Assembly: GCA_048634245.1 (NCBI GenBank)
Contig: JAIWAR010000004.1
Location: 1 to 54,994, forward strand
Origin: Methanosarcinales archaeon
GTDB taxonomy: Bacteria; Omnitrophota; Gorgyraeia; Duberdicusellales; 4484-171
Direction of reading: 5' to 3'
Length of the DNA: 54,994 nucleotides
The notes beneath the pieces were generated by a model that saw only the letters and a program-made list of their open reading frames with translations, did no database searches and was not told the origin of the DNA. The position numbers and the translations under genes are program-made. Within the stretch, counting starts at the first letter, position 1. Every line of letters begins with the position of its first letter. Shown in pieces: positions 2,837-33,879 of the stretch.

Positions 2837-2850
2837 CAGGAGGTATAAGC

Positions 2851-3240
2851 ATGAATATGAAAAAACCCAGAGTATCGTTTGTATGCGGAGCAATCATATT
2901 TACCTTACTTTTCGTCGGCTATTTTTTTGGTTATCAATTTCATACCGAATACACACAAAAGTTTGCTTATCTTAGCCTCCAGAACCAACACATTCTTAAA
3001 AAACAGCTGAGTTTACAGAATAATTTAGCAAAACTCAGTATCGCCCTCAAAGACTTAAAAACCGCGAATCGACGGGAAAAAAAGGATATTCTATCTAAAA
3101 TCGAGATTATCACCGGGGAAATCCAAAACTGGAAAACAGAGTATACTACTTCCATAAACGCGGTGAAAAAAGACATAGCGGATTTAACCAAAGTGGATTT
3201 AGGCGAAATCTCGGTGGATAAAAAACTCAGGAAAAAATAG
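2851..3240 (+). CDS. hypothetical membrane-anchored coiled-coil protein
   Basis: AGGAGG 7 nt upstream of the ATG. N-terminal hydrophobic helix followed by heptad-like polar sequence. No recognisable family. Confidence 0.55.
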   Translation: MNMKKPRVSFVCGAIIFTLLFVGYFFGYQFHTEYTQKFAYLSLQNQHILKKQLSLQNNLAKLSIALKDLKTANRREKKDILSKIEIITGEIQNWKTEYTTSINAVKKDIADLTKVDLGEISVDKKLRKK

Positions 3241-3310
3241 CAGTCGAGTTTTAAACCGATTGAAAATTCCTCAACAACCCTTAACTAGCGCAAAACCTTA
3301 AAAAACTATA

Positions 3311-4910: not shown

Positions 4911-5744
4911 ATGAAAAATATAATGAAGCTCCCTAGACTAAAGCCCGCAGTTTCCCGCATACCGCTCCTTGAGGAGCGAAATCCTGTACCTGCTTCCATC
5001 TCCGGCCTGAAGGCCAAAGTTTTGTCACGCGGGATAAAAATCGGAATTATCGGATTATTTGTATTTTGTGCTGTCTCTATCTATGGAGCATTTAAAATAC
5101 CTGAATATCCGCAAAATTATCTAAATGATTATGCCGGAGTCTTAGAACCTTCCCAGGAAAGAATACTAAATAATTTCTTAAAAAGTTACGACACCAAAAC
5201 CACCAACCAAATTTTTATTGGTATTTTTGATTCACTTCAGGGAGAAAGTTTAGAAGACTTATCTATCCGTATAGCTGAAAAATGGAAGCCGGGAACAAAA
5301 GACAAGGATAACGGCCTCCTGCTGCTGGTGTTTCTAAAAGACAGGAAAATGAGAATCGAGGTAGGTTACGGGCTGGAACATTTATTAACTGATGCCTTAG
5401 CAACAGCAATTATCGCTAATGAAATATCTCCGTCTTTTAGAAAAGGTGACTACTATGGCGGAGTATCCAAAGCTGTATTTAAAATAACAAAAGTTTTATC
5501 CAAGGACTTTTCTCCGGAAGAATTGCAACGGTATACTTATCGTGCCGGAAGGCCAAAGCGTAACCCCATACTTTCTTTGTTGTTTTTGATAGGGTTCATT
5601 ATATTGGCTATACGGCATCCTTTTCTGGCTCTGCTTTTATTTTCAGGAGGATTTTCTTCCGGCGGACGGTATAGCGGCGGAGGAGGCTTTTTTGGCGGGG
5701 GAGGCGGTTCTTTTGGCGGAGGCGGAGCCTCAGGGAGCTGGTAG
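4911..5744 (+). CDS. TPM domain protein (YgcG-like) with C-terminal TM segment and Gly-rich tail
   Basis: TPM-type core (YLNDYAGVL...NQIFIGIF...RIEVGYGLE) follows LemA, as in the common LemA-TPM-TPM operon. Ends in a GGGGFFGGGGGSFGGGG tail. Confidence 0.8.
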   Translation: MKNIMKLPRLKPAVSRIPLLEERNPVPASISGLKAKVLSRGIKIGIIGLFVFCAVSIYGAFKIPEYPQNYLNDYAGVLEPSQERILNNFLKSYDTKTTNQIFIGIFDSLQGESLEDLSIRIAEKWKPGTKDKDNGLLLLVFLKDRKMRIEVGYGLEHLLTDALATAIIANEISPSFRKGDYYGGVSKAVFKITKVLSKDFSPEELQRYTYRAGRPKRNPILSLLFLIGFIILAIRHPFLALLLFSGGFSSGGRYSGGGGFFGGGGGSFGGGGASGSW

Positions 5745-5753
5745 GAGGTGAAT

Positions 5754-6206
5754 ATGGAACGAGAACTACATCCTAAAAAATTTTTCACTAAAGAAGAAGA
5801 TGCCCAAATTATCCAGGCTATTCAAAAAGCTGAAAAAGCCACTTCAGGAGAATTACGGATTCATCTTACCAAGCAAATAAAAAAAGATCCTATGCGGGAG
5901 GCAATAAGAATATTTAAGCTTTTAGGGATGCAAAAAACTAAACAGCGTAATGGATGCCTTATCCTCATCGGTTTAAAAAATAAAAAAGTTGTGGTTATCG
6001 GCGATAAAGGAATTAATGATGTGGTAGGCGATAACTTTTGGGATGATGTCGTAGGCGTAATGGTTGAAAACTTCAAAAAAGGGGATTATGCGCCGGGTTT
6101 GACACAGGGGATTCTAATGATCGGAGAAAAGCTAAAGCAGTATTTTCCTTATGAAACTGACGATGTAAATGAATTATCGGATGAAATAAGTAAAGAGGAG
6201 CTGTAA
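5754..6206 (+). CDS. TPM domain protein (TLP18.3/Psb32/MOLO-1 phosphatase family)
   Basis: FFTKEEDAQIIQAIQKAEKATSGELRIHL...NGCLILIGLKNKKVVVIGDKGI pattern. I prefer the ATG at 5754, 5 nt after TAGGAGG, over the GTG at 5748. Confidence 0.75.
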   Translation: MERELHPKKFFTKEEDAQIIQAIQKAEKATSGELRIHLTKQIKKDPMREAIRIFKLLGMQKTKQRNGCLILIGLKNKKVVVIGDKGINDVVGDNFWDDVVGVMVENFKKGDYAPGLTQGILMIGEKLKQYFPYETDDVNELSDEISKEEL

Positions 6207-6218
6207 AAATAAAAAAAG

Positions 6219-6377
6219 ATGAACCTATTATTTATCCTGCTAAGAATATTATTTTTTTACTTTGTATTTAAATTTATTTTTAAAACTATCCTTTTTTTTA
6301 TCCTGGCGCCAAAGAAAAAAAAGAATAGCCAGTATAAAGAAAAAGATATCATAGATGCTGAGTTTAAAGAACTATGA
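6219..6377 (+). CDS. small membrane protein (52 aa), translationally coupled to the next gene
   Basis: Translates by eye to MNLLFILLRILFFYFVFKFIFKTILFFILAPKKKKNSQYKEKDIIDAEFKEL. Its TGA overlaps the ATG of the next gene (ATGA at 6374-6377). Below the ORF-track size cut-off. Confidence 0.5.
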   Translation: MNLLFILLRILFFYFVFKFIFKTILFFILAPKKKKNSQYKEKDIIDAEFKEL

Positions 6378-6943
6378 GCTTGTTTAAGCAATTAAAAGAA
6401 TTGTTCACCCCTACAGAAGAAAAAAAACCGGGTAAGAAAACTACAAAAAGAATTAAAAGAAAACCTCCGGTTAAAGTCAAAAAAAAGGCCTCTCAAAAGC
6501 GAAAAATAACAGTTAAAAAGAAAAGCCAAAAAAAACCGCTGAAAAGAATCAGAGTAAAACCGAAAATCCAAACCAAGAAAAAACAAAAAACAGCGCAAAA
6601 AAAATCTCAAAGGAAAACACGCCCCAAAATTAAGAAAAAACCTCTTAAAAAACATCCGCCAAAAAAATCAAGTCAGCCCTTAACAAAACCCTCTAAAGAA
6701 AAAATGATCGGAGCTGTTACTCATTATTTCGGAAAAATATCAGTGGGAATTGTTAAGCTTAAATCTACACTTCAGGTGGGCGATAAAATTCATATAAAAG
6801 GGGCTCACGATGATTTCACTCAACTCATCAAATCAATGCAAGTTAATCACAAAGATATTTTGCAGGCCAAAAAAGGGGACGAAATAGGTATCAAAGTCAC
6901 CCAAGCCGTACATAAAAATGATAAAGTATACAAACCTTCATAA
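6374..6943 (+). CDS. poly-lysine (histone H1-like) N-terminal region fused to a translation-factor-type beta-barrel domain
   Basis: About 110 aa of KKKxxQKK-type repeats. The C-terminal part (GAVTHYFGKISVGIVKL...GDKIHIKG...GDEIGIKV) resembles the small 'translation elongation factor-like' (EF-Tu domain 2-like) proteins. Confidence 0.7.
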   Translation: MSLFKQLKELFTPTEEKKPGKKTTKRIKRKPPVKVKKKASQKRKITVKKKSQKKPLKRIRVKPKIQTKKKQKTAQKKSQRKTRPKIKKKPLKKHPPKKSSQPLTKPSKEKMIGAVTHYFGKISVGIVKLKSTLQVGDKIHIKGAHDDFTQLIKSMQVNHKDILQAKKGDEIGIKVTQAVHKNDKVYKPS

Positions 6944-6978
6944 TGCCGATATGCCGCAACACAAAAAGGAGGTAGTTT

Positions 6979-7344
6979 ATGGTACTATTCGTTAAATTTT
7001 TCGGGATAATTGTTGTAGCTCTAGGGGTTGTTTTCTTGATAAATCCAAAAACTTTAAAACAATATATGTCATTTTGGAAAAAAGAAAAAAGGCTTAAAAT
7101 TGGAGGCATTGCAGCCATTTTACTTGGCAGTATTTTTTTAATAGCTGCCTCACAATGCAGAATAGCAGGGGTGATCACCGTATTAGGCCTTTGGTCGGTT
7201 ATAAAAGGCGTATTCTTGCTTACACTCAACCAAAAAAAGCTATTTGCCTATCTTGATTGGTGGCTCAATAAGCCTACGCCAAACATACGTTTTTTTGGCC
7301 TCATTGCCTTATTTTTTGGTGCCCTACTTATTTATTCAGCATAA
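6979..7344 (+). CDS. hypothetical integral membrane protein (about 4 TM segments)
   Basis: GGAGG RBS. Alternating hydrophobic helices. No family recognised. Confidence 0.6.
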   Translation: MVLFVKFFGIIVVALGVVFLINPKTLKQYMSFWKKEKRLKIGGIAAILLGSIFLIAASQCRIAGVITVLGLWSVIKGVFLLTLNQKKLFAYLDWWLNKPTPNIRFFGLIALFFGALLIYSA

Positions 7345-7368
7345 AAAAATTAAAGCGAAAGGGAGTAT

Positions 7369-7857
7369 ATGGCTGGATTTCTTGATCAATTTAGAAAAAA
7401 TGTGATTTCAAATGTGTGGAAAGACGCACCGGACGAATCTCAAATAAAAGATATAGATGATAAAATTGCTTTGGGGGTTTTACTATGGGTTGTAGCTGAG
7501 GCTGATGAAAAATTTCTGCCGGAAGAAATGGAAAAAATCAAAGAAATACTTATTTTATCTAGTAAAATTTCAACCGAAGATATCCCGACTATTTTAGCTT
7601 CAATTAAAGAAGCTGCCAAAGAAAGAATAGATTTATATCGATTCACTAAAGAGATAAGCGAGAATTTGCCTCACAACATTAGAATATCAATCATAGAAAA
7701 CCTTTTTCGGGTTGCCTGTATTGATAAAGAGCTAGACAACAACGAACTTGAAACTATACGAAAAATATCTGGCTTATTCAAAATAGAACATAGCAACTTC
7801 ATTAATGCTAAGATAAAAATTAAAAAAGAATTTGGTTTAGATACCGCTGGATTTTAA
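7369..7857 (+). CDS. TerB-like (tellurite resistance / DjlA N-terminal type) domain protein
   Basis: ALGVLLWVVAEADEKFLPEEMEKI ... LFRVACIDKELDNNELETIRKIS is the duplicated TerB helix pattern. GGGAG RBS. Confidence 0.6.
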   Translation: MAGFLDQFRKNVISNVWKDAPDESQIKDIDDKIALGVLLWVVAEADEKFLPEEMEKIKEILILSSKISTEDIPTILASIKEAAKERIDLYRFTKEISENLPHNIRISIIENLFRVACIDKELDNNELETIRKISGLFKIEHSNFINAKIKIKKEFGLDTAGF

Positions 7858-7949
7858 TAATTTCATTCGTCCGGCAAAAACATCAAATAACAACAGCAAC
7901 GGTTACATGGCTAAATACTTTATGTAACTAAAAATAAGGAGAATTCATA

Positions 7950-8153
7950 ATGGCAAAACACTCTATGAATATAAATATTTCAAAAGTTCCAAATAACCCT
8001 AATATGTTTGACTTTACAATCACCACCCCAACATTAAGGTCTCAATTCAGAATTCCCAGAGAAATGGTTAATAAGCTAAGAGTATTAATTGAAAAAGTGC
8101 TCATCAGCAAAGAACCCCCAAAACCGCCATTTCCCCAAAAAAACCCTAATTGA
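7950..8153 (+). CDS. hypothetical small protein
   Basis: AAGGAG RBS 7 nt upstream. No recognisable motif. Confidence 0.4.
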   Translation: MAKHSMNINISKVPNNPNMFDFTITTPTLRSQFRIPREMVNKLRVLIEKVLISKEPPKPPFPQKNPN

Positions 8154-18545: not shown

Positions 18546-19415
18546 ATGAGTATTATCGAACCAGCTATACGGCCTCCGGCGGAAGCGTACAGTTTTCTTT
18601 TACAAGTAACGCTTGGATGCTCTGTAGATTTCTGCAGTTTTTGCGGAGTGTATAAGAGTAAACCGTTTCGCATAAAAGATAACAAAGAAATTACGGCCGA
18701 TATAAACTGCCACGCCCGTTGGCATAAAGACACAAGGCGGGTATTTCTTATGGACGGCGATGCGCTCGTTTTAGATAATAACAGGCTTCTCCCAATTTTA
18801 AAAGAGATAGGAGGGGCTTTTCCAAAACTTTCCCGCATTTCAAGCTATGCGAATGGGCATAATATAGCGCAAAGAAGCGAAAACGAATTAAAAGAATTGC
18901 GGGCCCATAAGTTAAGCCTCATATATATGGGCTTAGAGAGCGGTAGTCAGGACATATTAAATCGTTGCCATAAACGGTCAAAAGTTAAGGAAATGATTGA
19001 TGCCGTGAATAAAGCGGCGCTGGCACAGATAAAGTCTTCGGTTATTGTATTGCTGGGTTTAGGCGGTGTAAAATACTCCAAAGAGCATGTTAAAAGCACA
19101 ATAGAGGCTTTAAACCTAATGCAGCCAAGGTATCTTTCATTTCTCTCCCTTATGATTATTCCCGGTACACCTTTAGCAGAAGAAATAAAAAAAGGCAGTT
19201 TTACAGAACTAAGCCCTATGAAATTGGTAGAGGAGTCCCATGAAATTATTAAGGGGCTTAAACTGAATAAAACTATATTTCGTTCGAATCACGCCTCAAA
19301 TCATCTTCCCTTAGAAGGAGTATTCCCTAAAGATAAAATTAAGCTATTAAATACTCTTGAGTCGGCTATTAATGGGAACTTAGGGTTAAAGCCGGAATTT
19401 TTAAGAGGTTTATAA
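18546..19415 (+). CDS. radical SAM domain protein (paralogue 2), CX4CX2C cluster motif
   Basis: LGCSVDFCSFCG, FLMDGDAL, YMGLESGS. Same length (289 aa) and colinear with 3311-4180. I chose the ATG at 18546 by alignment with the paralogue (MSIIEP vs MAIVEP). Confidence 0.8.
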   Translation: MSIIEPAIRPPAEAYSFLLQVTLGCSVDFCSFCGVYKSKPFRIKDNKEITADINCHARWHKDTRRVFLMDGDALVLDNNRLLPILKEIGGAFPKLSRISSYANGHNIAQRSENELKELRAHKLSLIYMGLESGSQDILNRCHKRSKVKEMIDAVNKAALAQIKSSVIVLLGLGGVKYSKEHVKSTIEALNLMQPRYLSFLSLMIIPGTPLAEEIKKGSFTELSPMKLVEESHEIIKGLKLNKTIFRSNHASNHLPLEGVFPKDKIKLLNTLESAINGNLGLKPEFLRGL

Positions 19416-19494
19416 GATTAAAGGTTTAAAGGCATTTAAACCGTTTTTCATAATGTCCCAATACTATAACGAAGTTTCATAAATAACTGGAATA

Positions 19495-19848
19495 ATGGCA
19501 CTAAAAAAAGATAAACACAATGGTATAGTTTACTCTACTGAACATAGCAAGAAACCTCTTCCTTGCAGCAACTCAATTAAAAAACACCAACCTCATATTA
19601 TTAAAAGCGACGGAATCGTTAGAATTGGAAGAGAAACTAAAGGGCGTAAAAGTAAAGGTGTAACAATAATCACAGGAATTTCCCTCAGCCATAGTCAACT
19701 GCTTAAGCTATCGCAACAGCTCAAACAAAAATGCGGTGCAGGCGGAACTGTAAAAAACGATGTAATTGAAATTCAAGGCGATCACCGCAATGCGCTCTTA
19801 GAAGAACTTAAGAAGAAAGGGTATAAAGTTAAGATATGCGGGGGATAA
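19495..19848 (+). CDS. yciH: translation initiation factor SUI1/YciH family protein
   Basis: VRIGRETKGRKSKGVTIITGI...GGTVKNDVIEIQGDHR is the SUI1 fold signature. Confidence 0.85.
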   Translation: MALKKDKHNGIVYSTEHSKKPLPCSNSIKKHQPHIIKSDGIVRIGRETKGRKSKGVTIITGISLSHSQLLKLSQQLKQKCGAGGTVKNDVIEIQGDHRNALLEELKKKGYKVKICGG

Positions 19849-20455
19849 CAAAATAACCCCTCAAAATGCCCTTAGAAGATGATTCTAGGCCCCTAAATCT
19901 CAAATTAGGCCACAAACCCAGCTCTCCTGAAACAGTCAAAATTCAACCTTAATTTTAGCCTCAAATCAACTCTTAATCGGATCTATTTTATGCTTTACAA
20001 AAGGTAACCTGGAGGGAGTATGTTAAAACTCATTTTATACCCTTTATAGGCCATTATAAGGGGCAAAACCAGGTATTAATAGATTATGACCCGATATATA
20101 TTACCTGTCCATATTATAGTTAATATAACAATAAGTAAGAAGCAAAGAGTTATTCACAAGTTATTTAATGCAACTCATAACTCTATATATATCAAGAGGA
20201 AAGCCCCTCTTTTACCTATATTAAAAAGTTAACATAAGGTATATTATCGGAAGTTAGTATAACAGGCGTTTTTTGTTATTTATGGTAGGTATGGGTATGT
20301 CTTTTTTTTGGGGGGATATATTCCCGGAAACAAAATCCCCAGATAGAACCTTTTAAGAGTTAAATACATCGCACTCTCTTATAGTAAGATTTACAGGAGC
20401 TCTGCAAGGGATTTGAATTAAAAAAAATGAGAGGATTTAACTCCTCCGCCGCGCT

Positions 20456-20698
20456 TTAGCGCTTTTTTCTGAGGACTATTTCGTGCTCGATATTCAGAAA
20501 ATCCAAAAGCACTTTTCTGATGTATACAGAAGGTTCTAAATTAGCCTTATCAGCCCAATTTAACACCTGTACCCATTGACTCTGGGTTAGCCGGACATTG
20601 ATCGTTTTAGTATATTTTACCGCTTTTTTAGGCCTGCCTTTTTTGATGATTTTCTTTACCATTCTCCTCCTTTTGTTAGCTTTTTTCACTACTGTCAT
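20456..20698 (-). CDS. orphan ribbon-helix-helix (CopG/MobC-like) DNA-binding protein with basic N-terminus
   Basis: INVRLTQSQWVQVLNWADKANLEPSVYIRKVLLDFL fits beta-strand, helix, helix. I use the ATG at 20698, because the listed ATG at 20734 lies upstream of the -10 box of its own promoter. Confidence 0.6.
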   Translation of the reverse strand: MTVVKKANKRRRMVKKIIKKGRPKKAVKYTKTINVRLTQSQWVQVLNWADKANLEPSVYIRKVLLDFLNIEHEIVLRKKR

Positions 20699-20722
20699 GA
20701 TATATCGCTCAATATTTAATTT

Positions 20723-20750
20723 AGTATACCACAATTCAAAATATTTTCAA
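20723..20750 (-). promoter_or_regulatory. sigma70-type promoter of the orphan RHH gene
   Basis: Minus-sense TTGAAA-N16-TATACT with extended -10 TG. About 18-nt leader. Confidence 0.55.
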
Positions 20751-20790
20751 GTATACAAAAAACCACCAAAAAACACCAAAAATAGCTGCA

Positions 20791-20827
20791 AAAAGCAAAA
20801 AAATAGCCGAGGTTTTTCTCCCCGGCT
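20791..20827 (-). terminator. intrinsic terminator ending the dinB-udg transcript
   Basis: Minus-sense AGCCGGGG-AGAAAAA-CCUCGGCU (one G-U pair, which is an A-C mismatch on the plus strand) followed by AUUUUUUUGCUUUUU. Confidence 0.7.
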
Positions 20828-20956
20828 CTTACTTTAATAACGCAGCTTAGCTATTTTCCCGCGCCTAAAAACCCGATAAAGATTTTAGCGATAAAATTCC
20901 GGCCGCCTATTACCTGCACCGGCTCTTCAAAACCCATCTCTTCTTTAGTGTTATTC

Positions 20957-21598
20957 TTATCGGGGAATATTCTTAAGCATTAAAAAATCTTTTTCCAAAA
21001 CCGACCTCATATTAACATTATATATGACAGTCGCCGGATGATATAAAGGAACAATTTTAAGTGAACCTTGAGAAACAGGCGTAATAAACACTTGCCCGTG
21101 GATTTTACTTATACCTTGCACTTTATTTTTCAAACCAAATTTTTCCATTATGTACCGAGTAGAAAAATTACCTAAACAACCTATTATTCTTGGTTCAATC
21201 AAGTCAACCTGCTGATCAAGATACCCGCTGCAAACATTTATCTCCTCAACTTCAGGGTTTCTATTGCCGGGCGGACGACATTTTAAGATGTTAGCGATAT
21301 AAATATCTTCTCGTTTCAGGCCCGCCCTGGACAATAACCCGTCAAGAATATTTCCTGCTTTTCCGCAAAAAGGTTTCCCAGTCTCGTCTTCAGTAGCGCC
21401 AGGGGCTTCACCAATGAACAGAATACGAGAAGAAATGCCGCCTTCCCCAAAAACAACATTTAGCCTTGTAGCTGCCAATGTGCATTTTTGACAATTACGA
21501 ACCTTTCTCTCTAATTGTTTAAGTTGTTCAAGCTTATTTTGCATCTCTGTTCTATTATACCCCGGCTGGGGATAAGCCTCAACCAGCCTCCTATCCAT
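20957..21598 (-). CDS. udg: uracil-DNA glycosylase, family 4 (Fe-S type)
   Basis: CQKCTL...VFGEG, FIGEAPG, NILKCRPPGNR and LYHPA motifs. Confidence 0.9.
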   Translation of the reverse strand: MDRRLVEAYPQPGYNRTEMQNKLEQLKQLERKVRNCQKCTLAATRLNVVFGEGGISSRILFIGEAPGATEDETGKPFCGKAGNILDGLLSRAGLKREDIYIANILKCRPPGNRNPEVEEINVCSGYLDQQVDLIEPRIIGCLGNFSTRYIMEKFGLKNKVQGISKIHGQVFITPVSQGSLKIVPLYHPATVIYNVNMRSVLEKDFLMLKNIPR

Positions 21599-25409: not shown

Positions 25410-26606
25410 CTAATTTCTAAGGACTGAATCAGGAAAATCAAAACGCTGGGCGTTTAAAGCCTGTTTTAACTCGGAATCTTTAATAAAACCCAGCTCCTTA
25501 AGGACCTCACCCAAAACTACTCCTTTTTTCCAATGTAAGTTTAAGGCCTCATCTAATTGTTCATAAGAAATTACCTGCCTCTCCAGCAATATTTGTCCTA
25601 TAGGCCGGTAGAAACGGTCTTGACCGTCATTTTGACAAACCTGAGAAGCCTTATTGATAAGAGGTACTCGGTCTCTTCTGTCAGCCATAAATATACTCTC
25701 GGGAATTGTCTTTAAATGCCGTTTAATCTCGGCAATCCGCTCATTGATTTCAATAGTATTCTTTACCGTCAAACCATGGTCTTTATTAAATACCGCAATA
25801 GATACGCTCATTAAAGGCGACTTCCTTATTTTTCGGGCCCGGTCCCGAACCATTACAAACCTCTGCTTACGGTCACGAGAAGAGTAATGAAAAGGAATAA
25901 TGCTATCAAAAGAATCGATAAAGTTTTGACAAACCTCTTCATGCTTATCGGGAGTGGTAATGAAAGCAAAATCATCGCCGCCAATATGACTGATAAAATC
26001 ACCGCTATTGCCGAATTTTTTCAAAGTTGTAAATAGCAAGTGAGCGGTTTGTAAAATCACTCTATCCCCTTTTTGATACCCGTAAACATCATTAAAAGAC
26101 TTAAAATTATCAATATCCACATAAGCAAAGGAAAAATTATTCCCCGAACTTAGCCTCTCCTTAAGTGTATCTTCGAGAATTTTTCCTCCGGGAAGGCCGG
26201 TCAGAGGACTGGCGTAAATACTGTGCTTTGCCCTTCTCATAGCCATTTCAATCCTAACTCTTAAATCCAGAGGATCCGGCGGCTTAATAAGGTAATCATC
26301 CACGCCCTGCTTAAGGCTTAGAAGCTGGGCCCGGAGATGACGTTTATTAATTAAAGTTATTACCGGAATAAAAGCGGTGGCAAAGTCTTTTTTTAAGATT
26401 CGACAGATGTCCAACTGTTCTTTACTGGCTGATTGAACGTCAATTACAATAACATCGGGAGAAATTTTTTTAATTGCCTGAATATCTGAATTTGGAAAAG
26501 GATTTTCCAAAAAAACTTCATAGCCCCAACCGTCAAAACAAAAATTAAGCACATCCTTAAGCTTATAATCCGAAGATACGATCAAAATTTTCTTAATTTT
26601 ATCCAT
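25410..26606 (-). CDS. response-regulator receiver + GGDEF domain (GGDDF variant) + C-terminal T2SSE_N/MshEN-like module
   Basis: REC with VIVIDV acceptor region and a K in YLIKP. DIDNFKSFNDVYGYQKGD...HIGGDDFAF. C-terminal PIGQILLERQVISYEQLDEALNLH + VLGEVLKELGFIKDSELKQALNAQ tandem motif. Confidence 0.85.
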   Translation of the reverse strand: MDKIKKILIVSSDYKLKDVLNFCFDGWGYEVFLENPFPNSDIQAIKKISPDVIVIDVQSASKEQLDICRILKKDFATAFIPVITLINKRHLRAQLLSLKQGVDDYLIKPPDPLDLRVRIEMAMRRAKHSIYASPLTGLPGGKILEDTLKERLSSGNNFSFAYVDIDNFKSFNDVYGYQKGDRVILQTAHLLFTTLKKFGNSGDFISHIGGDDFAFITTPDKHEEVCQNFIDSFDSIIPFHYSSRDRKQRFVMVRDRARKIRKSPLMSVSIAVFNKDHGLTVKNTIEINERIAEIKRHLKTIPESIFMADRRDRVPLINKASQVCQNDGQDRFYRPIGQILLERQVISYEQLDEALNLHWKKGVVLGEVLKELGFIKDSELKQALNAQRFDFPDSVLRN

Positions 26607-26624
26607 ACGATAAGATTATACCCC

Positions 26625-29600
26625 TCAAGAATTATCCCTCTTTTCCTTTTCCTTTTCTTTTTCTTCAATTATCTTTCTGATAATCTCCTTAGGAACCTGG
26701 GTATATTTTTTAAAATGCATGGAAGAATTAGCCCGGCCGCTGCTTAAAGAACGCATATTAGTAGCATACCCAAACATCTCCGACAACGGAGCCTCAGCCG
26801 TGATTATCTTTTGGTTTCCTTTAGTCTCCATACCTAAAATCTTCCCCCGTTTAGAACAAACATAACCGACAAGATTACTAGCATACTCCTCAGGAGTAAC
26901 TATCTCTAACTCCATGCAAGGTTCAAGCAATACCGGTTCAGACTTCATAAAAGCGGCTTTAAAGCAGCTTCGGGCAGCTATCTTAAAGGCCAATTCTGAT
27001 GAATCTACATCATGATAGGAGCCGTCAACCAATTTTACCTTTACATCCACTACCGGATAGCCAGCATAAACCCCCTGCTGCATAGCCGCAATAATCCCCT
27101 TTTCAACAGCCGGAATATAATTCCTGGGAATAACACCACCGGTAATAGCATCTTCGAATTCAAATCCTTTACCTGCCTCATTGGGTGAAAGTTCAATTAC
27201 TACATGGCCATATTGGCCCCGGCCGCCGGTTTGCTTTATATGTTTATATTCTTCGGTTATACTGCCGAGAATAGCTTCTTTATAGGCAACCTTGGGCTGA
27301 CCTACCGTAGCCTTGACTTTAAACTCTTCTTTTAATCTGTCAACGATTATTTCTAAGTGCAGTTCACCCATACCTGAAAGGATAGTCTCTGAAGTCTCCT
27401 CGTCAATATGAGCTTTAAAAGTAGGGTCCTCCTCGGATAGTTTAGCCAGACCTTTACTTAGCTTATCCTGTTCGCTCCTACTCTCAGGCACAATACTGAT
27501 TGAAATTACCGGCTCAGAAAACTCGATTGATTCTAAAATAATCGGGTTGTCTAAAGCAGTAAGGGTATCACCGGTTAAAGTACTGCTTAAGCCTACTACA
27601 GCGGCAATATCGCCGGTAAAGACAACATCTAAATTCTGACGTTGATTAGCGTGCATTTGAACAATTCTTCCCACCCTTTCTTTCTTTTTCTTAGTCGCAT
27701 TAAACACATAGGTTCCGGCTTTTAAACACCCGGAATAAATCCGAATATAGACTAATTTACCGATATGCTGGTCAGCCTGAACCTTAAAAGCTAAAGCTGA
27801 AAAAGGTTCTTGGTCTGAAGGCTTACGTTCAAGGATCTTCTCGGAATCATCAGGATCATGGCCTTGAATAGATGGAATATCTATGGGTGAGGGTAAATAA
27901 AGGGTTATAGCATCAAGAAGGCTCTGCACACCCTTATTTTTAAAAGCTGAACCGCAGAGCGCCGGAATAACCTTATGAGCCATTGTTCCCCGACGAATAG
28001 CTTTTTTCAATTCATCTTCAGTAATTGATTTCTCGTCCTTTAAATACTTCTCAGTAAGAATACTATCGCAAGCAGCAGCTTTTTCCACCATGATATGGTG
28101 ATATTTTTTAGCCGCTTCCTTGTATTCATCAGGAATCTCTTCAACATGAAAATCCTTGCCCAAGGATTCATCATCATAGGTATAAGCCTTCATCTCTATA
28201 AGATCAATGATTCCCCGAAAATTATCCTCAGCTCCAATAGGAATCTGTAAAGGAATTATATTAGCCCCTAAATTATCTCCTATGCTCTTAAGGACCACAA
28301 AGAAATCAGCACCGACCCGGTCCATCTTATTTACAAAGGCAATTTTAGGGACCTGGTATTTATCAGACTGACGCCAAACAGTCTCTGATTGAGGCTCAAC
28401 TCCTCCAACCGCACAAAAAACCGCTATTGCTCCGTCTAAAACCCTTAAACTTCTTTCCACCTCAACGGTAAAGTCAACGTGTCCCGGAGTATCAATAACA
28501 TTAATCCTGCAATCCCCCCAGTAACAGGTAGTTGCAGCTGAGGTGATGGTAATTCCTCTCTCCTGCTCCTGCTTCATCCAATCCATTATCGCAGCCCCAT
28601 CATGGACTTCACCTATTTTGTGAGAATGCCCGGTATAAAAGAGAATCCTTTCGGTCAAGGTGGTTTTACCGGCATCGATATGGGCCATAATCCCGATATT
28701 TCTGACTTTTTCTAAAGCATTTTTCCGGATTGGTAAAGGCTCTTCTCTAGGCTGCTTTTCTTCAGTTTCTCCCTTCTTTTCTTCTACCTCTTTTTTATTT
28801 TCTTCTGCTTCTCCTTTCTTTTTTTCAACTTCTTCCTTACTTTCTTCTACTTCTTCCTTGCTTTCTTCAGCTTCTTTTTTGCTTTCTTCAACCTCTTCTT
28901 TGTCTTCTTCTGTTTCTTTATCTTCCACGCTTTCCTGTTTAAGCTTAGCTTCAACGGAGGTAGTTTCCTTTGGTTTTTCTTCTTGTTCAATCGGGGCTTC
29001 AACAGGAGTCTCGCCGCCTTTTTCCTTAAGCTGATAGGCTAAACGCATTCTCTCCTTATCTACGCTCTCGATTTCCTTATCCTTTAGGCTCAGTTCTTTT
29101 TCTCTGGTTTCTAACTGCTGTTTTAGCTCTTGGTGCCTTTGGGCTAAAACATTATGTTCTTCTTTAGAAATCCACTCACTTTCTTTTTCCTTTTGTTTCA
29201 GCTTTAACACCTCACTCTTGTATGCATTTATTTCACTTTGTAATTTAATTATTCTTTCCGCATCATCTTTAATCTTTTTCTCCTGAGCTGCTTTCGCGCG
29301 CATCAATTCTTTAATATTTCTCTCCAAAGATTTTACCTCGCTTTGAAATTCGGAAATTTCTCTTTTTAAATTAACATTTTTAGTAAACTCTTTTTCTAAT
29401 TGCTTTTCCTTATCCAAAAGTTTATTTTTAAACTCCTGCTCCGGCCCCTTTTCTTTCTTCAAAAGCTTCTGCTGATAAATGAGCCACTTTTTACTCTGTT
29501 TGTACTTCTCTTTTAATTCAACCTCTTTTTTCTTTGAGATCTCCAACTCTTTTTGCAGAGCAATACTGTGACTTTTAATCTTTTCTAAAGCGGCAATAGT

Positions 29601-29780
29601 AGTTTTAAGCTCAAAAACTTTTGACCTTAAAGATTGGACTTTTTCGCCTAAAGCAACGGTTTTTTTATCGGCAAGAAGAGATTTATCCTTTTTTTTAGCA
29701 CCTTTACTGTCATCAAAAATGACAGTAAAGACAACAAGGCCTATAGCTGTAGTAAGCAGTAACCAGACAAATACAATCAT
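26625..29780 (-). CDS. elongation factor G homologue with N-terminal TM anchor, long coiled coil and acidic E/K repeat region (1051 aa)
   Basis: Residues ~352-1051 are a complete EF-G ([21 protein letters not shown], domain IV tip SYHDVDSS). Residues 1-22 are hydrophobic. Residues 23-350 are K/E-rich heptad-like sequence. One uninterrupted frame. Confidence 0.85.
28850..28912 (-). repeat. three tandem 21-nt (7-codon) units inside the EF-G N-terminal extension, encoding EESK(E/K)E(V/A) repeats
   Basis: Plus-strand units ctttcttctacttcttccttg / ctttcttcagcttcttttttg / ctttcttcaacctcttctttg, flanked by degenerate copies. Confidence 0.8.
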
Positions 29781-29801
29781 TTATTCCTTATTTAGCAAAA
29801 G

Positions 29802-30260
29802 CTACCTTGACTCTTTAGCCTTAGCAATAGAGCGGATGATATCCTTTTTCGTGATTACTCCTACCAATTTTTCTCCCTCTACCACAGGACAATAGTAGCT
29901 GGATTTTTCAATCATCGCGGTCGCGGCATCTTCAATACTCATTTCAGGCGTTAGGCTGATAAAATCTTTTTCTAAGATATCGCCAGCCTTAGTAGCTGTC
30001 ACTTTTTTTATCTCTTCTTCAAACCGCTTCACCCCTAAGGTAAGAAACCCCAGAGAAATATGTAAAAACGTTGGTAGATGCACTTTTTTATCCTGGAAAA
30101 TTACTCCCTCCTCTCCAACAACACCTAATAATTTACCGCCCTCATCTACTACCGGGGCGCCACTGATATTCTTTTCCAGAAATAACTCTGCTAAGGCACC
30201 TACGCTGGTCGCCGGAGTAACCGTAATCGGATCTTTAGTCATTATATCTTTTACCTGCAT
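29802..30260 (-). CDS. CBS domain pair protein
   Basis: Two CBS motifs (MTKDPITV...GAPVVD; ...MIEKSSYYCPVVEGEKLVGVITKKDI) separated by an insertion. Confidence 0.85.
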   Translation of the reverse strand: MQVKDIMTKDPITVTPATSVGALAELFLEKNISGAPVVDEGGKLLGVVGEEGVIFQDKKVHLPTFLHISLGFLTLGVKRFEEEIKKVTATKAGDILEKDFISLTPEMSIEDAATAMIEKSSYYCPVVEGEKLVGVITKKDIIRSIAKAKESR

Positions 30261-30932: not shown

Positions 30933-31226
30933 TTAAGTGCTAAGCCCCTTGAAGAGCTCTTCCAAAAATTCAGCGACTGGATGAGTACCTTTTTCTTTTG
31001 CTTTAGCTATAAGGCAGGGTAATTTTAGGGGCTTTTCTATTGTTTTGCGTATTTTATCTAAGTTAAAATCAACCTCTCCCTCGAAATATTTAACCAAATC
31101 CTCGATAAACCGGTCGCTGTTGTAATTTTTTTTGTAATCTCCCAAGTGTTTTAGTTTAAGCCTCTTGGCTTGGCGCTGAAGGCCGATTTCCTTGTTATCA
31201 CAAGAAGCTTTTTTATCTTCTTCCAT
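30933..31226 (-). CDS. hypothetical protein (97 aa)
   Basis: Follows the PC4-like gene with a 30-nt gap. No family recognised. Confidence 0.45.
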   Translation of the reverse strand: MEEDKKASCDNKEIGLQRQAKRLKLKHLGDYKKNYNSDRFIEDLVKYFEGEVDFNLDKIRKTIEKPLKLPCLIAKAKEKGTHPVAEFLEELFKGLST

Positions 31227-31256: not shown

Positions 31257-31490
31257 TTACATCTGAGCTATAGCCTCCTGAATCAAAGGCAAAACTCCTT
31301 CAGCCTCTGCTTTATTTAAACGGCCTAATTTAGTAAATCTAAACTCGCCCTCAGCAGATTCATTCTCCCGGGAAATTTGCAACTTCTTAGCTCCCTTGTT
31401 ATAAGAATAGACGCTCACCGTAATTTTAGTGCCTTCACCACCCCAAGTCCTGGAAAACAATTGCTCATCTAAACCGCTTTCGTATGGCAT
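31257..31490 (-). CDS. PC4/YdbC-like single-stranded DNA-binding protein
   Basis: The pattern WGGEG.KITVSVYSYNKG.KKLQISRE....GEFRFTKLGRL..AEAEGV resembles bacterial PC4 (p15) homologues. I prefer the ATG at 31490, 5 nt after GGAGG, over the GTG at 31496. Confidence 0.55.
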   Translation of the reverse strand: MPYESGLDEQLFSRTWGGEGTKITVSVYSYNKGAKKLQISRENESAEGEFRFTKLGRLNKAEAEGVLPLIQEAIAQM

Positions 31491-31496
31491 ATACAC

Positions 31497-31692: not shown

Positions 31693-32409
31693 TCAGAGGC
31701 TAAGATGAGTAAGATGTTTTTCTACGAACCGGATAATTTTTTTCTGTTTTTGGGCGGTTATATTATGGAATTCCAGGCCCATTCCCGGATAATAATCCGG
31801 CTGAATTTCTTTATCAACCAACCAGACTACCTTAACATCAGCTTCTACAATCTCAGAGTGATGCCGAAGGTCCAACCGAGTAACCAGTAAATCCCCTATC
31901 GAGAATACTTGCTCACTAATTATAAATACTCCTTCAGCGCTCAAATTTACAATTTTTCCCTTAAAAAAAGGTTTATCCGTAAGAAACTTCTGACGATATT
32001 CAATAGTAGCTTTAAAAGGTATTCTTTTAAATCTCCTCCTTAGGGGCTTGCGGGCAATTCGCTCAATTATCTGTTCCTGCCTAATCTCATCTATTGCCTG
32101 TTCCTCGCTGAGATGAAACTTAAAAATTCTATCTAAGCCGACAATTGAAAATAATCTCCTTACGTGCGAAGGAACATTACATAATTCAATTCTTCCCTTA
32201 TGATTTAGAACATTTTTGTATACAACTGTGACCAAAGAAACTCCCACATAGTCAACTAAATTTACACCGGCAAAGTTGCAAACAATATCCTTGACCTGAC
32301 GATTAAGCACCCGCCCTATAGTTTCGACGAAATCCGAGGCATCAATGCCAATATTGCCTTCCAGCTCTAAAATAACTACTCCATCCTTTTCTTTAATTTT
32401 AATCTTCAT
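31693..32409 (-). CDS. STAS (anti-sigma-factor antagonist) domain fused to a PilZ c-di-GMP-binding domain
   Basis: N-terminal STAS pattern (VVILELEGNI...VDYVGVSLV...VGLDRIF). PilZ motifs RRRFKR (RxxxR) and NLSAEG (D/NxSxxG). Confidence 0.8.
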   Translation of the reverse strand: MKIKIKEKDGVVILELEGNIGIDASDFVETIGRVLNRQVKDIVCNFAGVNLVDYVGVSLVTVVYKNVLNHKGRIELCNVPSHVRRLFSIVGLDRIFKFHLSEEQAIDEIRQEQIIERIARKPLRRRFKRIPFKATIEYRQKFLTDKPFFKGKIVNLSAEGVFIISEQVFSIGDLLVTRLDLRHHSEIVEADVKVVWLVDKEIQPDYYPGMGLEFHNITAQKQKKIIRFVEKHLTHLSL

Positions 32410-33141: not shown

Positions 33142-33879
33142 TCAGCCTTTTACCAAAAGATAGGCAAGAAATCCTAAAACACCTAATCCAACGATTAAGC
33201 AAAGATACCCCAGAAAACCACCCTTTCCTTCCTGTTCCCTAATAATCGGCTTCTTATTTAGCTGACTGGCAGCAACAGTAAACTCTTCCTGAACTTCTTC
33301 GGATTCCTTCCTTAAAAAAAGCTTCGAAGCTTCTTGTTTCTCTTCCGGAACAGGCTCAAGCAGCGGCTCTTCTTTTTCTTCAGCTTCTTCTCTTAAAGAC
33401 GGTTCTGCCTCTTTAACCGGCTCTTCTTTTTGTGCTTCTGTATTACTTTCTGCGAGAGGCTCCTGATCAAGCGAAGAAGACTCTGTTAATATTTCAAAAG
33501 AAGGATCTTTATCTTCCGGCTCCTCTCCCGCCTCTTGTTTAACCGGCTTATCAACCTCTAGAATTTCATCGATTTTATCCAGAGAAGATTTGACATCTTC
33601 CCCGGGAAAATACTCCATATCTTTATTCTGATCTGAAGAAACCGCAGATGCTTCTTTCTTTTCTTCCACCTTCTCTTCCGGTTTCTCCTCAGAAAGAGGT
33701 TCTTCCGCTTTTTCAGGTGCTTGCGGAGAAGTTCCTTCGACTTTATCCATTAACTCGCCTAAAACAGTGCGACAATCGTGACAAATACAAAGATGCTCCT
33801 CTACCAGTTGTATTTCCTCTTCACTAACGGTATGCTGAAAGTACTTAGGAATTAGTTTTTTAATCTCTTCGCATTCCAT
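33142..33879 (-). CDS. zf-HC2 type anti-sigma factor-like protein with acidic linker and C-terminal TM anchor
   Basis: The N-terminal segment HLCICHDCRTVL carries the H-x3-C-x2-C of the zf-HC2 motif. Then a long E/P/K-rich region and a terminal hydrophobic helix. Confidence 0.65.
   Translation of the reverse strand: MECEEIKKLIPKYFQHTVSEEEIQLVEEHLCICHDCRTVLGELMDKVEGTSPQAPEKAEEPLSEEKPEEKVEEKKEASAVSSDQNKDMEYFPGEDVKSSLDKIDEILEVDKPVKQEAGEEPEDKDPSFEILTESSSLDQEPLAESNTEAQKEEPVKEAEPSLREEAEEKEEPLLEPVPEEKQEASKLFLRKESEEVQEEFTVAASQLNKKPIIREQEGKGGFLGYLCLIVGLGVLGFLAYLLVKG

What the first reader, a model, noticed from the sequence alone, without database searches (positions are those of the whole stretch)
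26625..29780. EF-G with a 350-residue membrane-anchored coiled-coil/acidic-repeat N-terminal extension, outside any str operon context
A single 1051-codon frame encodes an N-terminal hydrophobic helix ([22 protein letters not shown]). About 240 aa of K/E-rich heptad-like coiled coil follow, then an ~80-aa acidic block with tandem EESK(E/K)E(V/A) heptads. After that comes a complete, apparently catalytically intact EF-G, with G1-G4 motifs and the domain IV tip SYHDVDSS present. There is no in-frame ATG/GTG/TTG with an RBS just upstream of the EF-G part (..[22 protein letters not shown]..), so a separate canonical product is not obvious. The gene sits in a tightly packed array of eight co-directional genes (gaps 8-49 nt): CBS protein, EF-G homologue, REC-GGDEF, MscS, M48 protease, then dinB, orf72 and udg. 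It is not next to rpsL, rpsG or tuf. A membrane-tethered translational GTPase would be novel. It could be a specialised EF-G2-type paralogue for membrane-proximal ribosomes, ribosome rescue or stress.
Basis: partly seen in the sequence, partly recalled or inferred. Interest (0 to 1): 0.7.

Follow-up and report, generated by a model that had tools for sequence, protein, structure and literature searches.

The report
Membrane-anchored EF-G paralogue of Omnitrophota
This gene encodes a complete ribosomal translocase (EF-G) permanently fused to a membrane anchor, a long coiled coil and a floppy acidic tether. The design is conserved across the nanobacterial phylum Omnitrophota alongside a normal EF-G, and no paper found here describes it.

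Summary
The 1051-codon ORF (26625-29780, minus strand) encodes four parts:
- an N-terminal TM helix;
- about 220 aa of true heptad coiled coil;
- an acidic linker of about 95 aa containing a 21-nt tandem repeat;
- a full five-domain EF-G.

It is not a chimera. More than 110 protein clusters and 34 genome loci, named Omnitrophota wherever a phylum name is given, share the architecture in one frame, and none has a conserved internal start.

The core is EFG-I type, not EF-G2. It passes the curated EF-G model (1060 bits, cutoff 659), keeps RGITI and fails the EF-G2 models. It is also not the only EF-G. Eight genomes, including one complete chromosome, also encode a canonical 698-aa paralogue that is 67-72% identical, and in four of them the two genes lie on the same strand of one contig.

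The anchor and coiled-coil module is homologous to free-standing proteins of about 210-230 aa with unknown function (hhalign 99.9%). The long gene therefore arose by gene fusion.

Most likely it is an active EF-G held on the cytoplasmic face of the membrane, serving membrane-proximal ribosomes.

Lying outside the str operon does not set the long form apart, because the short paralogue is outside it too. A possible third, str-operon fusA could not be checked.

The parts
26625..29780 (-). Whole gene: membrane-anchored long-form EF-G, 1051 aa plus stop
   Evidence: ORF. Full-length homologues of 1000-1080 aa at 54-85% identity. 34 genome loci.
29785..29789 (-). AAGGA Shine-Dalgarno-like motif, 4 nt before the ATG
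   Evidence: Read directly from the sequence. It supports translation starting at Met1 of the TM helix.
29715..29777 (-). N-terminal transmembrane helix (aa 2-22), predicted signal-anchor with N-terminus out and C-terminus in
   Evidence: Kyte-Doolittle mean of 2.59 over 19 residues, with a similar segment in almost all long homologues. AF2 helix 2-22. Mean K+R is 0 before the helix and 5.4 in the 25 residues after it, across 34 orthologues.
29682..29714 (-). Basic juxtamembrane segment (aa 23-33), disordered
   Evidence: pLDDT below 50. K/R-rich across the family.
29022..29681 (-). Conserved heptad coiled-coil module (aa 34-253). Three helices, 34-108, 113-200 and 206-253, break at the conserved KGP and SEW motifs. 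W99, F132, V136 and L212 are invariant.
   Evidence: AF2 models. Hydrophobic period 3.50, z = 13.9. Conservation. Homologous to standalone proteins of about 210-230 aa (hhalign 99.9%, E = 5.8e-36).
28734..29021 (-). Acidic, Glu/Lys/Pro-rich disordered linker (aa 254-349)
   Evidence: pLDDT about 30. Family-wide length is 51-147 aa (median 86), with 26% Glu, 12% Lys, 11% Pro and net charge -0.165 per residue. Not alignable between clades.
28756..28910 (.). 21-nt tandem repeat, 7.4 copies at 76% match, encoding the EESKEEV-type heptads inside the linker
   Evidence: Tandem Repeats Finder.
27888..28733 (-). EF-G N-terminus and G domain with G' insert (aa 350-631). Pro occupies the position of the canonical Met1.
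   Evidence: Pfam GTP_EFTU at 358-631. G1-G4 motifs. Junction comparison with short forms.
27555..27806 (-). EF-G domain II (aa 659-742)
   Evidence: Pfam EF-G_D2 and GTP_EFTU_D2.
27300..27521 (-). EF-G domain III (aa 754-827)
   Evidence: Pfam EFG_III.
26940..27296 (-). EF-G domain IV (aa 829-947) with both tip loops, GGRGQYG and SYHDVDSS
   Evidence: Pfam EFG_IV. Both loop motifs are present in 34 of 34 long forms.
26676..26933 (-). EF-G domain V (aa 950-1035), followed by a short K/E-rich tail that short forms also have
   Evidence: Pfam EFG_C. C-terminal comparison.
29802..30260 (-). Context only: tandem-CBS protein 21 nt upstream, probably co-transcribed. A promoter-like site lies at 30423-30395.
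   Evidence: Pfam CBS. The promoter scan is not above the shuffle expectation, so this is weak. Synteny is conserved only in the nearest subclade.
25410..26606 (-). Context only: REC plus partial GGDEF protein 18 nt downstream
   Evidence: Pfam. Synteny in only 5 long loci.

Best explanation
What it is. The gene encodes a real, lineage-specific paralogue of elongation factor G. It arose when a duplicated EFG-I-type fusA was fused, through an acidic disordered linker, to the C-terminus of a small bitopic membrane protein. That protein consists of an N-terminal TM helix and a heptad coiled coil of about 220 aa, and it still exists as a free-standing gene family.

How it most likely works. The TM helix inserts with its N-terminus outside and the basic flank inside, so the whole EF-G lies in the cytoplasm, tethered to the inner face of the cell membrane. 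The coiled coil probably self-associates and acts as a stalk, and the linker of 51-147 aa acts as a flexible leash. The EF-G head stays a normal ribosome-dependent GTPase. It would catalyse translocation and/or RRF-dependent recycling, but only within some tens of nanometres of the membrane, so it serves ribosomes engaged in co-translational membrane insertion or secretion. A free paralogue of canonical length serves the bulk cytoplasm.

Shown here: the architecture, its conservation, the paralogy, the fusion origin and the lack of an internal start.

Inferred: the topology, the oligomerisation, the retained activity and the membrane-proximal role.
For: One gene, conserved:
- More than 110 clusters of 1000-1080 aa align over about 100% of the query.
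- 34 genome loci carry a TM helix plus a 320-400 aa extension in frame.
- No internal start is conserved; 15 of 33 have none in codons -40 to -6.

Core intact and constrained:
- TIGR00484 scores are 1056-1070 bits for long forms.
- The core scores 883 bits against Thermus EF-G.
- G1, RGITI, G3, G4 and both domain IV loops are present in 34 of 34.
- Column conservation is 0.80 in long forms against 0.82 in short forms, and only 2 positions discriminate the clades.

Paralogue, not replacement:
- Both forms occur in 8 genomes, and in 4 of them on one contig and strand, including the complete chromosome CP070797.1.
- Identity between the two forms within a genome is 67-72%.
- The long|short split has 172/200 NJ bootstrap support.

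Topology: mean K+R is 0 before the TM helix and 5.4 after it.

Coiled coil: period 3.50, z = 13.9; three long helices; an invariant Trp and conserved motifs.

Linker: disordered, variable in length and strongly acidic.

Fusion origin: hhalign gives 99.9% against complete standalone genes of 209-233 aa.

N-terminal fusions to EF-G are compatible with the ribosome: solved entries of an L9-EF-G chimera are the top PDB hit. That these are 70S complexes is my own knowledge.

Biological context:
- Omnitrophota cells are about 0.2 um across (PMC10066038).
- Giant proteins with many TM regions are reported on all circular genomes of the phylum generated to date (10.1101/2023.11.21.568195).
Against: - There is no experimental evidence of any kind. 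No proteomic, localisation or activity data could be reached; the Kizina 2022 paper is not held.
- Topology rests only on the positive-inside rule.
- The AF2 models give no confident packing or oligomeric state (pTM 0.26).
- No gene neighbour is conserved across the family, so nothing ties it to Sec, SRP or YidC.
- In a cell about 0.2 um across, a reach of tens of nanometres would cover most of the cytoplasm. 'Membrane-proximal specialisation' may therefore mean little physically, and the tether could serve another purpose.
- A preprint reports S12-S7-EF-G-EF-Tu operons in complete Omnitrophota genomes. A third fusA may therefore exist, and the division of labour between copies is unknown.
Confidence: 0.55

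Rival explanations
1. Step specialisation. The two EFG-I paralogues have divided the two EF-G jobs between them. The long form would be dedicated to ribosome recycling with RRF, or alternatively to translocation. The tether would be secondary to that division.
For: Two EFG-I paralogues with split activities are documented in P. aeruginosa as EF-G1A and EF-G1B (PMC3832671). Margus et al. cite split functions for spd and mitochondrial EF-Gs (PMC3150367). Long cores evolve slightly faster than short ones: 71.9% against 78.2% identity across the paired genomes. 16 positions are fixed in short forms but variable in long forms, several of them in the G' region at 561-581.
Against: Only two positions discriminate the clades, and every catalytic and domain IV motif is kept. 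Nothing in the sequence says which step would be lost. This reading can also be combined with the main explanation rather than replacing it.
Confidence: 0.15
2. Reservoir or regulated release. The membrane form is a sequestered, inactive or less active pool of EF-G. Proteolysis within the disordered linker would release it, or the membrane would store it, in response to stress or on contact with a host.
For: The linker is long, disordered and exposed. An M48 membrane protease gene lies three genes downstream in the window. Membrane storage of another translational GTPase, LepA/EF4, has been proposed in E. coli (my own knowledge, not checked here).
Against: M48 synteny is limited to 5 related long-form loci. 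No cleavage motif is conserved in the linker, which cannot even be aligned between clades. The strong conservation of specific coiled-coil motifs suggests more than a passive anchor.
Confidence: 0.12
3. Ribosome docking or partitioning device. The EF-G head is used mainly as a ribosome-binding handle. It would hold ribosomes at the membrane, for example for hibernation, for inheritance at division in very small cells, or to organise polysomes, rather than to speed up elongation.
For: A coiled coil that probably oligomerises would present several heads. The standalone module family suggests an autonomous membrane scaffold to which EF-G was added. V. archaeovorus is reported to change its ribosome content with lifestyle (PMC10066038).
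Against: A mere handle would not need intact GTPase motifs and domain IV tips in 34 of 34 sequences, with near-canonical constraint.
Confidence: 0.1
4. Annotation or assembly artefact. Two genes, a small membrane protein and fusA, have been merged by a sequencing or assembly error in the repeat. Alternatively, the true product starts internally.
For: The linker contains a 21-nt tandem repeat. Standalone homologues of the module exist as separate genes.
Against: The same continuous frame is found in more than 110 clusters from independent assemblies (ENA, JGI, NCBI, Logan) and on a complete chromosome. Linker length varies but the frame never breaks. 15 of 33 orthologues have no possible start in the 35 codons before the EF-G core, and Pro replaces the canonical Met1 in the window gene.
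Confidence: 0.03

Closest known systems
Canonical bacterial EF-G (FusA, subfamily EFG I; for example Thermus thermophilus EF-G, PDB 1DAR/4V5F)
   Same: Five-domain architecture. Full-length match to TIGR00484 (1060 bits). 883 bits against the Thermus protein. All GTPase motifs and both domain IV loops are present.
   Different: It carries a 350-aa N-terminal TM, coiled-coil and acidic-linker extension. It is not in a str operon. It coexists with a paralogue of canonical length.
Pseudomonas aeruginosa EF-G1A / EF-G1B (two EFG-I paralogues with distinct activities; PMC3832671)
   Same: Two EFG-I-type copies in one genome, at least one of them outside the str operon. This is a precedent for functional division without large sequence change.
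   Different: The Pseudomonas pair is 84% identical and both proteins are soluble and of normal length. Here the pair is 67-72% identical and one copy has gained a membrane anchor.
EF-G2 / EFG II paralogues (Thermus EF-G-2, PDB 1WDT; Bacteroides EF-G2, NF058620; mycobacterial EF-G2)
   Same: An additional EF-G homologue outside the str operon.
   Different: EFG II lacks the RGITI motif and is highly diverged (PMC3150367). This protein keeps RGITI, scores 360 bits against 1WDT compared with 883 against EF-G, and fails both EF-G2 models.
Unnamed standalone TM plus coiled-coil proteins of about 210-230 aa (for example P0212, P0195, P0194, P0176, P0185)
   Same: Homologous to residues 35-224 of the extension, with the same three motifs in the same order (K.W..K; E.EFS.N[LV].L; KKK..ES.WVSK.EY..L). 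hhalign probability 99.9%.
   Different: They end shortly after the third motif and have no linker or EF-G. They are encoded in unrelated contexts. Function unknown; no Pfam, NCBIfam or PDB match.
FtsY, the SRP receptor GTPase with an acidic N-terminal A domain that mediates membrane association (my own knowledge)
   Same: It works alike in principle: a translation-linked GTPase kept at the membrane by an N-terminal region that includes a long acidic segment.
   Different: A different GTPase class (SRP54-type NG domain; no such Pfam hit here). In E. coli its membrane association is peripheral, and it has no coiled coil. An analogy only.
RNase Y (N-terminal TM helix, coiled coil, then catalytic domains; my own knowledge)
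   Same: The same design logic: a single N-terminal anchor and a coiled coil place an RNA-directed cytoplasmic enzyme at the membrane. One standalone homologue gives a sub-threshold hit to the RNase Y N-terminus (15.4 bits, cutoff 454).
   Different: No real homology, and a different catalytic domain.
Engineered L9-EF-G chimera used in solved structures (PDB 4WPO, 4WQF, 4WQU, 4WQY, 5HAU, 6UCQ)
   Same: A polypeptide fused to the N-terminus of EF-G. It is the best PDB sequence hit (889 bits). As I recall, these are 70S ribosome complexes, which would show that the N-terminus can carry a fusion while EF-G is bound.
   Different: An artificial construct with a short fusion partner that is not membrane-bound.

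Membership tests
EF-G, subfamily EFG I (NCBIfam TIGR00484 equivalog) | Score above the curated whole-protein cutoff, with an end-to-end match to the model | tested here: met
   1060 bits against a cutoff of 659.4; residues 352-1042 match model positions 3-690 of 691. Orthologues score 1056-1070 bits.
EF-G, subfamily EFG I (NCBIfam TIGR00484 equivalog) | Five domains: G (with G'), II, III, IV, V | tested here: met
   Pfam GTP_EFTU, EF-G_D2, EFG_III, EFG_IV and EFG_C, all above cutoff. The AF2 fold is confident, with pLDDT 85-94.
EF-G, subfamily EFG I (NCBIfam TIGR00484 equivalog) | GTPase motifs G1-G4, including the trGTPase G2 motif RGITI, plus the domain IV tip loops | tested here: met
   All are present in the query and in 34 of 34 long forms.
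EF-G, subfamily EFG I (NCBIfam TIGR00484 equivalog) | Gene located in the str operon (rpsL-rpsG-fusA-tuf), the context that characterises the primary EFG I copy (Margus 2011) | tested here: not met
   There is no S12, S7 or EF-Tu in the window or within about 6 kb of any of the 85 EF-G genes. Margus et al. note that extra EFG I copies outside the str operon exist, so this excludes 'primary str copy' but not EFG I.
EF-G, subfamily EFG I (NCBIfam TIGR00484 equivalog) | Ribosome-dependent GTP hydrolysis, translocation and RRF-dependent recycling | not testable with these tools
   Needs biochemistry.
EF-G2 / EFG II | Loss of the RGITI G2 motif and low conservation of domains G, II and III (PMC3150367) | tested here: not met
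   RGITI at 408, present in 34 of 34. Core column conservation is 0.80.
EF-G2 / EFG II | Score above the cutoff of the curated EF-G2 models (NF009377, NF058620) | tested here: not met
   490.8 against 890, and 474 against 1000.
spdEFG1/2 and mitochondrial-type EF-G | Closer to mtEFG1/mtEFG2 than to EFG I | tested here: not met
   582 bits against mitochondrial EF-G1 and 492 against mitochondrial RRF2/EF-G2, compared with 883 against Thermus EF-G. No dedicated spdEFG model was available.
Tet(M)/Tet(O)-type ribosomal protection proteins | Score above the NF012153 cutoff | tested here: not met
   397 bits against a cutoff of 775.
Standalone TM plus coiled-coil family (unnamed; alignment A4) | N-terminal TM helix followed by a coiled coil carrying the three ordered motifs, with profile-profile homology | tested here: met
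   hhalign probability 99.9%, E = 5.8e-36, 180 columns. Motifs visible.
Standalone TM plus coiled-coil family (unnamed; alignment A4) | Free-standing gene of about 210-230 aa | tested here: not met
   Here the module continues in frame into the linker and EF-G. It is a fused derivative, not a member in the strict sense.
Integral (bitopic) inner-membrane protein, N-terminus out and C-terminus in | One hydrophobic helix of about 20 residues, with positive charge concentrated on the cytoplasmic flank | tested here: met
   Hydrophobicity. Mean K+R is 0 before and 5.4 after the helix. Insertion and orientation themselves cannot be tested here.

The most novel reading that the evidence does not exclude
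Omnitrophota organise elongation in space. Oligomeric coiled-coil stalks would display several EF-G heads on the inner face of the membrane, forming a layer of high local translocase concentration. That layer would sustain the very long co-translational membrane insertion or export of the phylum's giant envelope proteins (10,000 to 85,000 aa). It would be the first natural integral-membrane translational GTPase and a bacterial counterpart of the membrane-tethered translation seen in mitochondria.
Probability: 0.15. Interest if true: 0.85.

Novelty: new variant of a known kind. Interest (0 to 1): 0.65.

Why it matters
EF-G is regarded as a freely diffusing cytoplasmic factor. A version that is permanently anchored in the membrane, keeps a fully canonical catalytic core and is conserved across a phylum would be direct genetic evidence that some bacteria localise an elongation factor.

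It offers a handle on how ultra-small cells, which may be predatory or parasitic, organise translation at the membrane. It also bears on how they might cope with synthesising giant membrane-associated proteins.

It also identifies an uncharacterised family of membrane-anchored coiled-coil proteins to which EF-G was recruited. The hypothesis can be tested directly with existing tools: the public V. archaeovorus proteome, heterologous expression and in vitro translation assays.

In public databases these proteins are labelled simply 'elongation factor G', so the feature is easy to miss.

Tried and rejected
1. Chimera or misassembly in the repeat: rejected. The frame is conserved in more than 110 clusters and on a complete chromosome.
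2. Internal start producing a canonical EF-G: rejected. No start is conserved, and no promoter-like site lies at the junction (a weak test).
3. EF-G2, spdEFG or Tet(M) identity: rejected on model cutoffs and motifs.
4. Sole EF-G of the genome: rejected for relatives. Eight genomes have both forms.
5. Functional link to the neighbours (CBS, REC-GGDEF, MscS, M48): rejected as a family property. Synteny holds only in the nearest subclade.
6. ER/K-type single alpha-helix spacer instead of a coiled coil: rejected because of the strong 3.5-residue hydrophobic periodicity.
7. Known domain or fold for the module: none found in Pfam, NCBIfam, PDB sequence search or Foldseek.
8. Word-indexed search with the extension profile: uninformative. 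Low-complexity words saturated the candidate list and only 6 fragments were returned.
9. The 'S12' marker next to the short fusA in L056: a false positive. The genes there are NYN, HhH-GPD, a PAS kinase and REC.
10. The 198-aa TM coiled-coil ORF near the short fusA in L014: it hits the profile at 2e-16 but lacks the defining motifs, so it is treated as doubtful.
11. A third, str-operon fusA: could not be retrieved.
12. Expression evidence from Kizina et al. 2022: the paper is not held.
13. An E. coli-type dif site at the GC-skew switch: none within 3 mismatches.
Full report
**1. The observation**

The window carries a single ORF at 26625..29780 on the minus strand, 1051 aa long with an ATG start. 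An AAGGA motif ends 4 nt upstream of the ATG.

Residues 352-1042 match the curated EF-G equivalog TIGR00484 from end to end, at 1060 bits against a cutoff of 659. They also match the five Pfam EF-G domains. G1 (AHIDAGKT), RGITI, DTPGH, NKMD and the two domain IV tip loops (GGRGQYG and SYHDVDSS) are all present.

Residues 1-350 have no Pfam match. AlphaFold2, run with a 61-sequence alignment, gives the following:
- a helix at 2-22;
- a disordered basic stretch at 23-33;
- three long helices at 34-108, 113-200 and 206-253;
- a disordered segment at 254-345, with pLDDT about 30;
- a confident EF-G fold, with pLDDT 85-94.

An extension-only model reproduces the same helices. Tandem Repeats Finder detects the 21-nt repeat inside the acidic block, with 7.4 copies at 28756-28910.

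No ATG, GTG or TTG lies in the 60 codons before G1, apart from the Met directly before AHIDAGKT. The window holds no S12, S7, EF-Tu or other translational GTPase.

**2. It is a conserved gene, not an artefact**

A search of 5.8 billion proteins returned well over 110 clusters of 1000-1080 aa. They align over 94-100% of the query at 53-75% identity, and wherever a source names them the name is 'elongation factor G [Candidatus Omnitrophica/Omnitrophota]'. Almost all of them begin with a hydrophobic helix followed by a K/R-rich patch.

A scan of one genome per GTDB species gave 79 loci. Enumerating every EF-G ORF in them gave 85 genes. 34 genome loci carry the long form, with a TM helix and 320-400 residues before G1; one of them, L062, is cut by its contig end. 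About 50 are short canonical genes that start M-x-R-x-[IV][13 protein letters not shown].

22 of the 34 long loci come from records titled Omnitrophota or Omnitrophica. The rest are coarsely labelled third-party MAGs that group with them; for example, L002 and L003 group with Ca. Susulua stagnicola, an Omnitrophota.

The linker differs in length (51-147 aa) and cannot be aligned between clades, yet the frame never breaks. In 15 of 33 long genes no start codon exists in the 35 codons before the EF-G core. Where one exists, its position is not conserved. In the window gene, Pro sits where short forms have Met1. A merged-gene or internal-start explanation is therefore very unlikely.

**3. It is a paralogue of EFG-I type**

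Eight genomes encode both forms.
- Four MAGs have them on separate contigs: L003/L009, L004/L026, L002/L065 and L010/L056.
- Four have them on the same strand of one contig: L008, L013, L024 and L047. L008 is the complete chromosome CP070797.1, with the short gene at 1251-3347 and the long gene at 4942-8097.

Within a genome the two cores are 67-72% identical. On the EF-G core alone, the long|short bipartition appears in the NJ tree and in 172 of 200 bootstrap replicates. The shared motifs of the extension independently indicate a single fusion event.

Both paralogues pass TIGR00484 by a wide margin, with short forms at 1088-1096 bits and long forms at 1056-1070. Neither reaches the EF-G2 cutoffs. 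Margus et al. define EFG II by loss of RGITI and strong divergence, and they note that extra EFG I copies occur outside the str operon (PMC3150367). All 34 long forms keep RGITI.

Long cores are almost as constrained as short ones. Mean top-residue frequency is 0.80 against 0.82. Only two positions discriminate the clades, while 16 positions are fixed in short forms but variable in long forms.

**4. The str-operon argument**

None of the 85 EF-G genes, long or short, has S12, S7 or EF-Tu markers within about 6 kb. The one apparent S12 hit was false. Being outside the str operon therefore does not distinguish the long form.

A 2026 preprint states that several complete Omnitrophota chromosomes carry S12-S7-EF-G-EF-Tu-S10-L3 in order (10.64898/2026.06.07.730766). 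That EF-G could be a third copy that is less than about 70% identical to the query and so fell outside the 80 loci kept. It could also be the short form in lineages I did not sample. I could not resolve this. It remains the main open point.

**5. Anatomy and origin of the extension**

Topology. Across 34 orthologues there are no K or R residues before the hydrophobic helix, and a mean of 5.4 in the 25 residues after it. The helix starts at residue 2 and is about 21 residues long. It is thus a reverse signal-anchor rather than a cleavable signal peptide, and the positive-inside rule places the rest of the protein in the cytoplasm. This is an inference.

Coiled coil. The family-averaged hydrophobicity of residues 34-253 has its strongest period at exactly 3.50 residues (z = 13.9). 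These are heptad coiled coils with a hydrophobic seam, not charged single helices. The helices break at two conserved motifs, KGP near 110-113 and SEW(V/I) at 201-204. W99, F132, V136 and L212 are invariant, and W203 is nearly so.

Linker. It contains 26% Glu, 12% Lys and 11% Pro, with a net charge of -0.165 per residue.

Origin. I ran an exhaustive HMMER search over 1.84 billion representative proteins with an extension-only profile. It found 90 proteins.
- Some are fragments of long EF-Gs.
- One set of 209-233 aa ends just after the third motif.
- All five members of that set whose contigs were examined are complete genes with their own stop codon, in unrelated contexts.
- Profile-profile comparison of 34 extensions against 16 of these proteins gives 99.9% probability (E = 5.8e-36) over 180 columns, with the same motifs in the same order.

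The module has no Pfam, NCBIfam, PDB-sequence or Foldseek relative beyond generic coiled-coil noise. The long EF-G is therefore a fusion of a pre-existing membrane-anchored coiled-coil protein of unknown function with a duplicated fusA.

The short fusA of L014 is followed by homologues of the same 97-aa ORF and YqeY gene that lie just upstream of the window's long gene. Together with the four same-contig loci, this fits an origin by local duplication.

**6. Mechanism**

The best-supported reading is an active EF-G tethered to the cytoplasmic face of the membrane. The core shows no sign of decay. Solved entries of an L9-EF-G chimera are the top PDB hit, and as I recall these are 70S ribosome complexes. 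This suggests that EF-G's N-terminus can carry a fusion while the factor is on the ribosome.

Rough geometry, which is inference:
- 211 helical residues span about 32 nm if fully extended, or about 11-13 nm if folded back.
- A disordered linker of about 86 residues adds roughly 8 nm on average, and up to about 30 nm at full stretch.
- The head could thus work within some tens of nanometres of the membrane.

Omnitrophota cells are about 0.2 um across (PMC10066038), so this layer may include a large share of the cytoplasm. That weakens a strict 'membrane-only' role but still implies confinement and a high local concentration.

[quoted passage not shown] This suggests a demand for very long co-translational membrane insertion, although no link was tested.

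The rivals are listed with their own tests: step specialisation as in P. aeruginosa EF-G1A/1B (PMC3832671), a releasable reservoir, and a ribosome-docking device.

**7. Novelty**

Full-text searches combining Omnitrophota, EF-G, N-terminal extension, transmembrane, membrane-anchored, coiled-coil and translational GTPase found no description of this architecture. The following papers also contain none:
- the phylum-wide genomic survey;
- the 2026 complete-genome preprint;
- Margus et al. 2011;
- a 2025 study of EF-G evolution.

The library is incomplete, so an existing description elsewhere cannot be excluded. The proteins sit in public databases under the plain name 'elongation factor G'.

I classify this as a new variant of a known kind. 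The catalytic part is a canonical EF-G. The membrane-anchored fusion and the module family are undescribed as far as I could check.

**8. Verdict**

- Confidence in the architecture and the paralogy is high.
- Confidence in the proposed role is moderate (0.55), because nothing experimental could be reached.
- Interest: 0.65.

Noticed in passing
window 19000-21000: Cumulative GC skew peaks at about 19.5-20.5 kb, exactly where gene orientation flips: large ORFs are mostly on the + strand up to 19848 and mostly on the - strand from 20957. This fits converging replication forks (a terminus), but it may only reflect coding-strand bias. No E. coli-type dif site was found within 3 mismatches.
   Followed up: partly
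window 33142-33879 (-): A zf-HC2 (anti-sigma-like) protein with a long Glu/Pro/Lys-rich low-complexity middle and a C-terminal hydrophobic helix. Its spacer has the same kind of composition as the EF-G linker, so such spacers may be a general feature of membrane-tethered proteins in this organism.
   Followed up: no
window 25410-26606 (-) and 31693-32409 (-): Genes related to cyclic-di-GMP signalling flank the locus. One is a REC protein whose GGDEF match covers only about half of the domain model and whose signature reads GGDDF. The other is a STAS-PilZ fusion. A PAS kinase-PilZ fusion also sits next to the short fusA in L056.
   Followed up: no
window 30933-31226 (-) and 31257-31496 (-): Two small ORFs (97 and 79 aa) with no Pfam match are conserved in synteny upstream of 7 long-form loci. 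A homologue of the 97-aa ORF also lies directly downstream of the short fusA in L014, together with YqeY.
   Followed up: partly
L008 1251-8097; L013 439-7635; L024 2565-8076; L047 2418-8082: The short and long fusA paralogues lie on the same strand 0.2-1.9 kb apart, in either order. L008 comes from a complete Omnitrophota chromosome (CP070797.1).
   Followed up: yes
L085 8001-8684; L088 8001-8690; L087 770-1414; L084 583-1212; L083 285-968: A free-standing family of TM plus coiled-coil proteins (209-229 aa in these five loci) is homologous to the EF-G extension. In two loci the gene follows a large TPR protein and a DUF1318 gene. The family has no annotation anywhere.
   Followed up: partly
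L014 10411-11007 (+): A 198-aa TM plus coiled-coil ORF lies 2.3 kb downstream of a short fusA. It hits the module profile (E = 2e-16) but lacks the W, EFSKNV and SEWV motifs. It may be a distant relative or only a compositional match.
   Followed up: partly
L020, L037, L035, L053, L075: Short-type EF-Gs that are 71-73% identical to the query core come from records labelled Auribacterota, Spirochaetes/Spirochaetia or Planctomycetota, whereas no long form has such a label. The labels were not verified. If they are correct, the short type is the older, vertically inherited form.
   Followed up: no
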